NCBI RefSeq assembly: GCF_056746865.1
Contig: NZ_CM163382.1
Length of the DNA stretch: 64,000 nt
Strand: one strand, 5' to 3'
Shown: piece after piece, positions 20,521 through 23,500 of the stretch
Layout: the number at the start of each line of letters is the position of its first letter
Numbering within the stretch: the stretch's first letter is position 1
Program-made: the position numbers

Positions 20521-23500
20521 TTAAACAAAAAAACGAAGCAAGCATACGCCTGATGGCGGTCCAAAAAAAAGAGTCATCTTGCCTAAGAGTATTGGCAGGA
20601 TGGTGAGATTGAGCGACAATCGAGTTACACCGTCGCTTAAAGTGACGGCATAATAATAAAAATATGAAATTCCTCTTTGACGGGCCAATAGCGATATTGG
20701 CCATTTTTTTAACGCAACATCTGCGGCAAATTCCCTTCTCCATACAGGTGTAGTGCACCGACTGCGACCACATAGCGCCCCGGCGGCATGGCGCATAATT
20801 TGTCCCGCCAGGCGAGATTTCGCTGATGCATCAGCACATCGTACAGCGACTGACTGAACGTATTAGGCAGCGTTATTTCATTATTTTGCGGCGGCGCATT
20901 CAGCCACCAGCTCATCATTTGTTGCAGCAACCGTGCATTGGTGTGCCAGTGGGTCAGCGTATCGTCCAGCAGTGCCAGTCCGTTGTCAGGGAGCTGGAGC
21001 AACATGGCAATCTGGTTTTCAGCCCCTTCCAGTTCAATCACGGGTTTATGTTGTTGCTTCGCCGCCTGCAATAGCTGGTAATCGATACCGTATTCTGCCC
21101 GCAGCCCCAGTTTTTGTGCCTGTGTCGCCTGAAGAACCATCGCGATTTGCCACAGCGGTTGGGTAGAAAAGAGTGAGGGAGAAATGCCCATCTCCTGGCT
21201 AATGTGCTGCAGATTTTGGAGTTGCTCCTCGCTAATGCGCTCTTCCAGCGCCTCGCAGGCAGGCAAATTAGCAAAAGGCGTATCGCTGGTGGAAACATCC
21301 GCCTCGACGATCAGCGCATCGGCGTTTTTGAGCTTTTTGAGCAAACGGGTGGGCAGGGGAGCCATATCGTGGCTGCCCATATGAATACTGCCAATCAGAT
21401 GAAAATGGCGATTGCCGGGAAGAGAGATATCGATAGCAGGCCAGGTGTAATGATTACCGCGCAGCGCGGCCCAAAGCGTTTTTACCCGGTACAACAGATC
21501 CATACGACCTCCCTTTGTGAAATATCATGCTAGCGCGCGGGGAGGGATGGCGCAAATCGCAAATGGAGTTGGGGACTTGTTTGATGTGTTTGTATGCGTG
21601 CAAAAAAGGTCGCGTAGAATAATTTCCCTATAACGGATGCGCCACCCTAAAGCAGCGCATCCGCAATGATGTACTTATTCCTTCGGTTTAAACCGCAGCA
21701 ACCGGTTGGCGTTACTCACTACGGTAATCGATGAGAGCGCCATTGCCGCTCCGGCGACCACCGGGTTAAGCAGCGTACCGGTGAACGGCCACAAAATACC
21801 GGCGGCGACCGGAATACCGATACTGTTGTAGATAAACGCGCCGAGCAGGTTCTGCTTCATATTGCGCAGCGTTGCGCGGGAAATAGCGAGCGCATCCGCA
21901 ACGCCCATCAGGCTATGGCGCATCAGGGTAATCGCCGCGGTTTCAATGGCAACATCACTGCCGCCCCCCATCGCAATGCCGACATCCGCCTGGGCCAGCG
22001 CTGGCGCGTCGTTAATGCCGTCGCCCACCATTGCCACCTGACGTCCTTCACTTTGCAGATGTTTGATCGCTTCGGCTTTACCGTCTGGCAGCACCCCGGC
22101 GATCACCTCATCAATCCCTGCTTCTTTGGCGATCGCATTGGCGGTGGTTGGGTTATCCCCGGTCAACATCACCAGACGATATCCCGCTTTATGCAGGCGT
22201 TGCAGCGCCGCCACGCTATCACTACGCAATGGATCGCGTACAGCCAGCAGGGCTACCGCTTTCCCGTCAACCGCCAGCAGCACAGGCGTTGCCCCTTGCG
22301 ATGCCTGAGCTGAAATATCTGCCTCAATCGCTTTAGTATCAACTTGCTGGTCATTTAACAGCGCCTGATTGCCCAGCAATACCGCATGACCTTCAGCTTC
22401 ACCGCTCACGCCCAGCCCGCGCAATGTGCGGAAACCGTTGACCTGCGGCAGCTGCATATCACCTGCTTTATCGAGGATCGCTCGTGCCAGCGGATGGCTG
22501 GAACCTTGCTCCAGCGCCGCCGCCAGACGCAGCGCCTGCGCTTCGTCAACATCAGCAAATGTTTTCACTGCGACAACCTGCGGCTTCCCTTCGGTCAGCG
22601 TCCCGGTTTTATCGAACACTACGGTATCGAGCGTACTGGCGCGTTGCAGCGCGTCGGCGTCCCGCACCAGCACACCAAACTCAGCCGCCCGCCCGACGCC
22701 CGAAATAATCGACATCGGCGTCGCCAGTCCCAGCGCACACGGACAGGCGATAATCAGCACCGTGGTGGCAATCACCAGGGTATAAACAATTTGCGGTGCC
22801 GGGCCAAAGAAATACCAGATTGCCGCACTGACCAGCGCAATGACTACCACCACCGGCACAAACACAGCGGAGATTTTATCCGCCAGTTGGCCGATTTCAG
22901 GCTTGCTGCTCTGGGCCTGGCGCACCATACGAATAATCCGCGACAGCGTGGTATGGCTGCCAACCGCACTGGCACGAAACAGCACACTGCCGTCCTGTAC
23001 CACTGTCCCGGCATGGACGCTATCGCCTTCGCCTTTTTGCTGCGGGATAGGTTCGCCCGTCAGCATCGCTTCATCCAGCCACGCTTCGCCCTGGGTAATC
23101 TCACCATCTACCGGCACACGGTCGCCGGTCGTCAGGCGCAGTAACATACCTGGCTGAACATCTGCCAGCGGCACGTTTTTTTCACCTTCGTCGGTGACCA
23201 GGCGCGCCGTCGGTGGGGTTAAATCGAGTAATTTCTCCAGCGCCTTAGAAGAACGCTGACGCGCGCGCGCTTCCAGCATATGGCCGAGATTGATCAGACC
23301 GATAATCATCGCGCTGGCTTCGTAATAAAGATGTCGCGCTTCCATCGGGAACCACTGCGGCCACAGGTTGACGCTCATCGAATAGAGCCACGCTACGCCA
23401 GTACCCAGCGCTACCAGCGTATCCATCGTTGCCGCACCGTTTAGCAGGCTTTTCCATGCGCTGCGGTAAAAATGGCCGCCGGCAAAAACCATTACCGCCA

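What the first reader, a model, noticed from the sequence alone, without database searches (positions are those of the whole stretch)
20590..20711. ChiX sRNA with terminator overlapping the 3' end of convergent ybaP
The ybaK-ybaP intergenic region contains the ChiX sRNA sequence with candidate -35 TTGGCA and -10 GACAAT upstream. The ORF track naturally misses it. Its intrinsic terminator coincides with the ybaP stop on the opposite strand.
Basis: established knowledge. Interest (0 to 1): 0.35.

Follow-up and report, generated by a model that had tools for sequence, protein, structure and literature searches.

The report
Known ChiX small RNA gene
This is the ordinary, already well-studied E. 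coli chiX gene, a small regulatory RNA that keeps the chitosugar porin ChiP switched off; it sits in its usual place and differs from the K-12 reference by one harmless-looking base.

Summary
The finding is correct and ordinary. Window 20627-20710 (+) is a full-length ChiX (SroB/MicM/RybC) sRNA: Rfam RF00368 scores 81.1 bits against a gathering score of 44. It matches K-12 chiX (b4585) at 83 of 84 bases and lies in the same ybaK(-)/chiX(+)/ybaP(-) context.

- **Promoter:** the proposed TTGGCA-17-GACAAT is present, puts the start at the annotated 5' end, and is conserved across Enterobacterales.
- **Seed and terminator:** the 12-nt chiP-pairing seed (nt 45-56) and the terminator are identical to K-12.
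- **ybaP overlap:** only the last two U-tail bases overlap the ybaP stop codon. The hairpin lies outside ybaP. This 2-nt geometry recurs in 87 of 116 related loci.
- **The one difference:** A37U (window 20663) lies in the A/U-rich linker. The window's exact 84-nt sequence is in 382 of 5422 matching complete E. coli genomes, and U37 is also present in E. albertii and E. whittamii. It is predicted to add one base pair to the chbBC decoy duplex.

Expression, Hfq binding and regulation were not tested here. They are inferred from sequence identity and published work. Novelty: already known. Interest: low.

The parts
20592..20597 (+). -35 hexamer TTGGCA of the chiX promoter
   Evidence: Consensus scan. 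The same hexamer is found in 57 of 115 related Enterobacterales loci, and per-column conservation is 60-80%.
20615..20620 (+). -10 hexamer GACAAT, within the conserved block TTGAGCGACAAT (20609-20620)
   Evidence: Exact GACAAT occurs in 73 of 115 loci and is preceded by TTGAGC in 70. The hexamer ends 6 nt before the annotated 5' end.
20627..20710 (+). ChiX (SroB/MicM/RybC) sRNA, 84 nt
   Evidence: Rfam RF00368 at 81.1 bits, full length. It matches K-12 chiX b4585 at 83 of 84 bases. The fold z-score is -3.8.
20630..20648 (+). 5' stem-loop (ChiX nt 4-22, 8 bp)
   Evidence: MFE fold. A stem of at least 5 bp is kept in all 42 unique orthologues although there are 37 different sequences; median z is -4.0.
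20650..20670 (+). A/U-rich single-stranded linker (nt 24-44) with four consecutive A-R-N triplets (AAU AAU AAA AAU). It is the presumed Hfq distal-face binding region. Nt 37/38-44 also pair with the chbBC decoy.
   Evidence: Read directly from the sequence. The Class II (proximal plus distal face) behaviour of ChiX comes from the literature. The chbBC pairing was computed. The assignment of this segment as the distal-face site is an inference.
20663..20663 (+). Single-base difference from K-12: T in place of A (ChiX A37U)
   Evidence: The window's exact 84-nt sequence is in 382 of 5422 matching complete E. coli genomes. U37 is also in E. albertii, E. whittamii and two divergent E. coli representatives.
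20671..20682 (+). Seed (nt 45-56, UCCUCUUUGACG), complementary to the chiP Shine-Dalgarno region
   Evidence: It forms 12 perfect Watson-Crick pairs with K-12 chiP leader nt 80-91, 8-19 nt upstream of the AUG. The target site is exact in 5396 of 5426 E. coli genomes.
20683..20710 (+). Rho-independent terminator: 8-bp GGCCAAUA/UAUUGGCC hairpin (20683-20702) and U7 tail (20704-20710). The tail is the presumed Hfq proximal-face site.
   Evidence: The stem is invariant in 42 orthologues.
20709..21503 (-). Convergent gene ybaP (TraB/GumN family). Its TAA stop (20709-20711) shares two bases with the ChiX U-tail.
   Evidence: The same 2-nt overlap is seen in K-12 and in 87 of 116 related loci.
20026..20505 (-). 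Upstream neighbour ybaK (Cys-tRNA(Pro) deacylase), transcribed divergently from chiX
   Evidence: NCBIfam NF007951 at 329.9 bits. ybaK lies upstream in 99 of 101 related loci.

Best explanation
Window 20627-20710 (+) is the chiX gene. It encodes an 84-nt, Hfq-dependent, trans-acting small RNA.

It is transcribed from its own sigma-70-type promoter (TTGGCA-17-GACAAT) and ended by its own intrinsic terminator. The mature RNA has four parts: a 5' stem-loop, an A/U-rich single-stranded linker, a 12-nt seed, and a terminator hairpin with a U-tail.

The seed pairs with the Shine-Dalgarno region of the chiP (ybfM) mRNA. This blocks translation and promotes Rho-dependent termination and decay, so the chitoporin stays silent. 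When chitosugars induce the chb operon, the chbB-chbC spacer pairs more extensively with ChiX and triggers its decay, which de-represses chiP. The chiP leader fragment ChiZ acts as a second sponge.

Shown here: family membership, near-identity to K-12, an intact seed, complementarity to both targets, and conservation of the structure, promoter and synteny.

Inferred from published work on K-12 and Salmonella: expression, Hfq binding, repression and the decoy mechanism.
For: - Family: Rfam RF00368, full length, 81.1 bits against a gathering score of 44.
- Identity and position: 83 of 84 bases match K-12 chiX b4585 at the same locus. A match to the locus is present in 5422 of 5426 complete E. 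coli genomes.
- Structure: two hairpins, fold z-score -3.8.
- Pairing with chiP: the seed forms 12 perfect pairs with the chiP Shine-Dalgarno region.
- Pairing with the decoy: 12 pairs plus 7-8 pairs with the chbB-chbC spacer, about -29 kcal/mol against about -21 for chiP. No shuffled sRNA (0 of 500) matched the chbBC duplex energy, and 7 of 500 matched the chiP one.
- Target sites: both are almost fixed in E. coli.
- Conservation across Enterobacterales: ybaK-chiX-ybaP synteny, promoter hexamers, and the 5' stem kept in 42 of 42 orthologues despite 37 different sequences.
- Mechanism from the literature: chiP repression and the chb decoy (PMC4098024); the ChiZ sponge and Rho (PMC7815308); Class II Hfq binding and constitutive expression (PMC6239178; bioRxiv 10.1101/2021.05.11.443692).
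Against: Nothing contradicts this reading. The limits are these.

- chiP and chb are not in the window. Pairing was tested against K-12 targets, and their presence in this strain is inferred from near-fixation of the sites in E. coli.
- No expression data exist for this strain.
- The promoter match alone is no better than chance (1 site found, 0.7 expected).
- The invariant seed in the cross-species set is partly by construction, because the search pattern covered nt 41-60.
- The terminator stem never varies, so it gives no covariation evidence.
Confidence: 0.97

Rival explanations
1. As well as its trans role, the locus acts in cis on ybaP. Convergent transcription from the constitutive chiX promoter, or pairing of ChiX with a read-through ybaP 3' UTR that would be perfectly complementary to it, modulates ybaP. 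Alternatively, the ybaP 3' UTR sponges ChiX.
For: - ChiX and ybaP are convergent and share two bases.
- The exact 2-nt overlap is kept in 87 of 116 loci across several families of Enterobacterales.
- On the minus strand the ChiX hairpin is not followed by a T-run. The nearest terminator-like site for ybaP is a weak 5-bp stem at 20552-20539, so ybaP transcripts may run antisense through chiX.
Against: - No paper in the searchable library reports a functional ybaP-ChiX link. The only co-mentions are an annotation convention and a table of flanking genes.
- The conserved overlap has a simpler explanation: TTA at the end of a T-run is a ready-made TAA stop on the other strand, in a compact intergenic region.
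- No transcript data were available here.
Confidence: 0.08
2. The element is only a terminator or structural intergenic element serving the flanking genes, not an independent RNA gene.
For: A strong hairpin and T-run lie at the end of a coding gene.
Against: - The terminator is on the + strand, whereas both neighbours (ybaK and ybaP) are on the - strand, so it cannot terminate either of them.
- A conserved promoter lies at the correct distance upstream.
- The full-length covariance-model match includes the 5' hairpin and the seed.
- K-12 annotates an ncRNA at this position.
Confidence: 0.01
3. The region encodes a small protein starting at the AUG at ChiX nt 38-40 (window 20664-20666).
For: An AUG is present, and the frame stays open through the terminator.
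Against: - There is no Shine-Dalgarno sequence upstream and no stop codon within the transcript.
- The AUG is absent in many orthologues. The four bases before AAAUUCC read AAAC, CAAG, ACUG and other non-AUG forms in more than 30 of 115 loci.
- The two mechanical antisense ORFs over the locus have no Pfam match.
Confidence: 0.01

Closest known systems
E. coli K-12 chiX (b4585; also called SroB, MicM or RybC; Rfam RF00368)
   Same: Same locus (ybaK/chiX/ybaP), same length (84 nt), same promoter hexamers, same 5' hairpin, same seed, same terminator and same 2-nt overlap with ybaP. The two are identical at 83 of 84 bases.
   Different: There is one substitution, A37U, in the A/U-rich linker. It breaks the A7 run of K-12. 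In silico it adds one A-U pair to the chbBC decoy duplex (-29.6 against -28.5 kcal/mol) and removes a predicted alternative pairing of the A-run with the 3' U-tail. No functional consequence has been shown.
Salmonella ChiX and the wider set of Enterobacterales ChiX orthologues
   Same: The seed block AAAUUCCUCUUUGAC, the GGCC terminator, the ybaK/ybaP flanks and the promoter block are shared.
   Different: The sequence of the 5' stem-loop and the length of the linker differ between genera, while the stem itself is maintained.
Other Class II Hfq-dependent sRNAs (MgrR, CyaR, McaS)
   Same: The architecture is the same: an A-R-N-rich single-stranded region plus a U-tailed terminator. According to the literature these bind the distal and proximal faces of Hfq.
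   Different: They have unrelated sequences, seeds and targets. ChiX is constitutively made and is controlled by RNA decoys rather than by a regulated promoter.

Membership tests
ChiX / SroB sRNA (Rfam RF00368) | Covariance-model score above the curated gathering score, over the full model | tested here: met
   81.1 bits against 44, model positions 1-83 of 83, E = 2.8e-10.
ChiX / SroB sRNA (Rfam RF00368) | Genomic position between ybaK and ybaP, on the strand opposite to both | tested here: met
   ybaK at 20026-20505 (-), ChiX at 20627-20710 (+), ybaP at 20709-21503 (-). The layout is the same in K-12 and in about 99% of related loci.
ChiX / SroB sRNA (Rfam RF00368) | Seed complementary to the chiP (ybfM) translation-initiation region | tested here: met
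   Nt 45-56 form 12 perfect pairs with the K-12 chiP leader over AGAGGA. The site is exact in 5396 of 5426 E. coli genomes. The chiP gene of the source strain is outside the window.
ChiX / SroB sRNA (Rfam RF00368) | More extended complementarity to the chbB-chbC intergenic decoy | tested here: met
   Nt 47-58 and nt 37-44 pair with the K-12 chbBC spacer at -29.6 kcal/mol. The site is exact in 5338 of 5426 genomes.
ChiX / SroB sRNA (Rfam RF00368) | Two-hairpin architecture: a 5' stem-loop and a Rho-independent terminator with a U-tail | tested here: met
   MFE and centroid folds agree, z = -3.8. Terminator scan. The 5' stem is kept in 42 of 42 orthologues.
ChiX / SroB sRNA (Rfam RF00368) | Own promoter and expression as a discrete ~84-nt RNA | tested here: inconclusive
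   A conserved, promoter-like TTGGCA-17-GACAAT sits at the correct distance. Transcription itself cannot be measured with these tools. Constitutive expression is reported for K-12.
Class II Hfq-dependent sRNAs | Binding to both the proximal face (U-tail) and the distal face (A-R-N) of Hfq | not testable with these tools
   The sequence motifs are present: a U7 tail and four consecutive A-R-N triplets at nt 26-37. Binding is known only from published K-12 work.

The most novel reading that the evidence does not exclude
The A37U allele may not be neutral. The window's exact ChiX sequence, which carries U37, is in about 7% of complete E. coli genomes, and U37 is shared with E. albertii and E. whittamii, so it is probably the ancestral Escherichia state. 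U37 lengthens the ChiX-chbBC decoy duplex by one pair. It also breaks the A7 run that, in K-12, can pair in silico with the 3' U-tail. It might therefore change how quickly ChiX is destroyed on chitosugar induction, or how it occupies Hfq. That would give natural variation in chiP de-repression, or in Hfq competition, between E. coli lineages.
Probability: 0.08. Interest if true: 0.3.

Novelty: already known. Interest (0 to 1): 0.08.

Why it matters
It matters little beyond correct annotation. ChiX is a textbook sRNA: a constitutive repressor of the chitoporin ChiP, controlled by an mRNA decoy, and a strong competitor for Hfq. Confirming it here shows that the first-stage reader can recognise a non-coding gene that ORF-based annotation misses. 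RefSeq annotation of many non-K-12 genomes also omits it; strain 042, for example, lists no feature between ybaK and ybaP. The single-base variant and the conserved 2-nt overlap with ybaP are small descriptive additions, not discoveries.

Tried and rejected
- **Whole-RNA duplex prediction.** It over-extended the pairing into the structured hairpins (about -38 kcal/mol), so I discarded it. I used duplexes restricted to the single-stranded linker and seed instead.
- **RNAalifold on a MAFFT alignment of 42 orthologues.** It recovered only the invariant terminator, because the variable-length 5' hairpin was not aligned in register. There was no covariation signal, so I replaced it with sequence-by-sequence folding.
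- **My crude -10 regex.** It mis-called the 5' end in about 18 sequences, where an internal TAATAAT matched. Those sequences were left out of the structural analysis.
- **Possible co-variation of U37 with a chbBC variant.** 452 genomes differ from K-12 in a 90-nt chbBC query. The one sampled variant lies outside the pairing site, and the 40-nt site itself is exact in 5338 of 5426 genomes. There is therefore no evidence of co-variation, though linkage was not tested genome by genome.
- **A published functional link between ybaP and ChiX.** None was found.
- **Mechanical antisense ORFs 20489-20773 and 20521-20796.** Neither has a Pfam match.

Full report
**Observation.** The stretch 20590-20711 lies between two minus-strand genes. 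ybaK is at 20026-20505 (NCBIfam equivalog NF007951, 329.9 bits). ybaP is at 20709-21503 (Pfam TraB/PrgY/GumN, 147.7 bits; annotated ybaP in matching E. coli genomes). The wider context is ushA-ybaK-[sRNA]-ybaP-copA. A scan of the whole window against Rfam 15 at gathering thresholds gave four hits. One of them is sroB (RF00368, the Rfam name for ChiX/MicM/RybC) at 20627-20710 on the + strand. It scores 81.1 bits against a gathering score of 44, with E = 2.8e-10, and covers model positions 1-83 of 83. The feature is real, sits at the stated place and is far beyond chance.

**Comparison with the reference.** RefSeq K-12 MG1655 annotates ncRNA chiX (b4585) at 507204-507287 (+). It lies between ybaK (506603-507082, -) and ybaP (507286-508080, -), so chiX and ybaP overlap by two bases. 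The window has the same geometry: the sRNA ends at 20710 and the ybaP stop codon occupies 20709-20711. A base-by-base alignment of the ybaK-ybaP intergenic region shows complete identity from the ybaK start through the promoter and sRNA, with one exception. That exception is A to T at window 20663, which is ChiX nt 37. Strain 042 is identical to the window here, yet its RefSeq record lists no feature between ybaK and ybaP. This shows how often the gene goes unannotated outside K-12.

**Anatomy.**
- *Promoter.* TTGGCA (20592-20597), a 17-nt spacer, then GACAAT (20615-20620). It matches 9 of 12 consensus positions and is the only promoter-like site on either strand in 20400-20900. Alone this is no better than chance, since shuffles give 0.7 +/- 1.0 sites. 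However, the -10 ends 6 nt before the annotated 5' end.
- *Promoter conservation.* Across 115 related loci, the block TTGAGCGACAAT and the -35 hexamer are conserved well above their surroundings. Per-column identity is 70-90% against 10-50%. Exact GACAAT occurs in 73 loci, preceded by TTGAGC in 70, and TTGGCA occurs in 57.
- *Fold.* The RNA forms a 5' stem-loop (nt 4-22) and a terminator hairpin (nt 57-76) followed by U7. The region between them is unpaired. MFE and centroid structures are identical, and z = -3.8 against dinucleotide shuffles.
- *Linker.* Nt 24-44 are A/U-rich and contain four consecutive A-R-N triplets (AAU AAU AAA AAU). This is read directly from the sequence.

**Target complementarity.** chiP and chb lie outside the window, so I fetched them from K-12.
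- *chiP.* ChiX nt 45-56 (UCCUCUUUGACG, window 20671-20682) form 12 perfect Watson-Crick pairs with the chiP leader. The paired stretch is 8-19 nt upstream of the AUG and covers the AGAGGA Shine-Dalgarno sequence.
- *chbBC.* With the chbB-chbC spacer, nt 47-58 form 12 pairs. After a 2x2 internal loop, nt 38-44 form 7 more. The predicted energy is about -29 kcal/mol, against about -21 kcal/mol for chiP. This fits the published picture of a decoy that pairs more extensively than the target.
- *Shuffle control.* No shuffled sRNA (0 of 500) reached the chbBC duplex energy, and 7 of 500 reached the chiP one.
- *Target sites across E. coli.* The 38-nt chiP site is exact in 5396 of 5426 complete genomes, and the 40-nt chbBC site in 5338 of 5426. 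Two sampled variants from longer queries had their changes outside the pairing sites. The source strain therefore almost certainly carries K-12-type targets, but this is an inference.

**Conservation elsewhere.** All but one chance hit (L062) are Enterobacterales, including Escherichia, Salmonella, Citrobacter, Enterobacter, Klebsiella, Serratia, Yersinia, Rahnella, Pantoea, Erwinia, Hafnia and Proteus.
- A ybaP homologue lies downstream in 108 of 109 loci with enough flank, and ybaK lies upstream in 99 of 101.
- The exact 2-nt overlap between the T-run and the ybaP stop recurs in 87 of 116 loci, and the stop is TAA in 104 of 116.
- The terminator stem is invariant in 42 unique full-length orthologues, so it offers no covariation.
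- The 5' stem-loop changes sequence freely (37 distinct versions among 42), yet every one folds into a stem of at least 5 bp. Median dG is -11.3 kcal/mol and median z is -4.0. Structure is conserved while sequence turns over.
- The invariance of nt 41-60 in this set is partly imposed by the search pattern and should not be over-read.

**The single-base variant.**
- *Frequency.* The window's exact 84-nt sequence, which carries U37, is found in 382 of the 5422 complete E. coli genomes that contain the locus, about 7%. Nearly all the others differ by one base.
- *Likely ancestry.* U37 also occurs in E. albertii, E. whittamii and two divergent 'E. coli' species representatives. This suggests it is the ancestral Escherichia state and that K-12's A37 is derived.
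- *Variation across genera.* The equivalent position varies: G in 53 loci, A in 16 and U in 5. This argues against strong constraint.
- *Predicted effects.* U37 leaves the A-R-N register intact, because it falls on an N position. It adds one A-U pair to the chbBC duplex (-29.6 against -28.5 kcal/mol). It removes a predicted alternative pairing between K-12's A7 run and the U-tail, raising the predicted unpaired probability of the seed from 0.76 to 0.92. These are small in-silico effects with no experimental support.

**Mechanism.** This part comes from the literature and was not tested here.
- ChiX continuously represses chiP. Chitobiose-induced chb mRNA titrates ChiX and triggers its decay, which de-represses the porin (PMC4098024).
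- ChiX pairing increases Rho-dependent regulation of chiP, and the chiP leader fragment ChiZ is a second sponge for ChiX (PMC7815308).
- ChiX is a Class II sRNA that binds the proximal and distal faces of Hfq. It is an unusually strong competitor for Hfq and is constitutively expressed (PMC6239178; PMC5778611; bioRxiv 10.1101/2021.05.11.443692).

**Rivals.**
- *Terminator only.* This is excluded by strand. Both neighbours are on the minus strand, so a plus-strand terminator cannot serve either of them.
- *Small ORF from the AUG at nt 38.* It lacks a Shine-Dalgarno sequence and an in-transcript stop codon, and the AUG is not conserved.
- *Additional cis-antisense or interference role on ybaP.* This cannot be excluded. 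On the minus strand the ChiX hairpin has no downstream T-run, and the next terminator-like site is a weak stem at 20552-20539. No paper supports such a role, and the conserved overlap has a trivial explanation: TTA at the end of a T-run reads as TAA on the other strand.

**Verdict.** This is the canonical, already known chiX gene: a full member of RF00368 with every testable defining feature met. Interest is low.

Noticed in passing
window 21504-21674: The K-12 gene ybaQ (b0483, a DNA-binding regulator) is absent here. Only 171 bp separate the ybaP start from the copA stop. The same contiguous ybaP-copA arrangement covers at least 80% of the query in 3523 of 5422 complete E. coli genomes, so K-12's ybaQ is the less common, accessory state. 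Strain 042 has a 417-bp gap with no annotated gene.
   Followed up: partly
window 6886-6950 (+): The DnaX programmed -1 ribosomal frameshift element (Rfam RF00382, 96.8 bits, full length), which is expected inside dnaX.
   Followed up: no
window 14873-14950 (+) and 56241-56318 (-): Two matches to naRNA4/CssrE (Rfam RF02564, 81.1 and 71.9 bits). These are REP-type paired-hairpin repeat elements in intergenic DNA.
   Followed up: no
window 20552-20539 (-): A weak terminator-like site on the minus strand (5-bp stem and a T-rich tail) lies between chiX and the ybaK start. If ybaP transcripts read through the ChiX hairpin, they would be antisense to the whole of chiX up to this point.
   Followed up: partly
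E. coli genome collection: In two records the chiX locus and the chbBC site are on replicons labelled 'plasmid'. Four of 5426 complete genomes gave no chiX match at all. These are probably mislabelled replicons and deletions, but they were not examined.
   Followed up: no
L002 (E. coli 042, NC_017626.1) 1507-1709: The RefSeq (PGAP) annotation of strain 042, and of every other non-K-12 hit listed, shows no ncRNA feature for chiX although the sequence is identical to the window. The gene appears to be routinely missing from automated annotation.
   Followed up: partly
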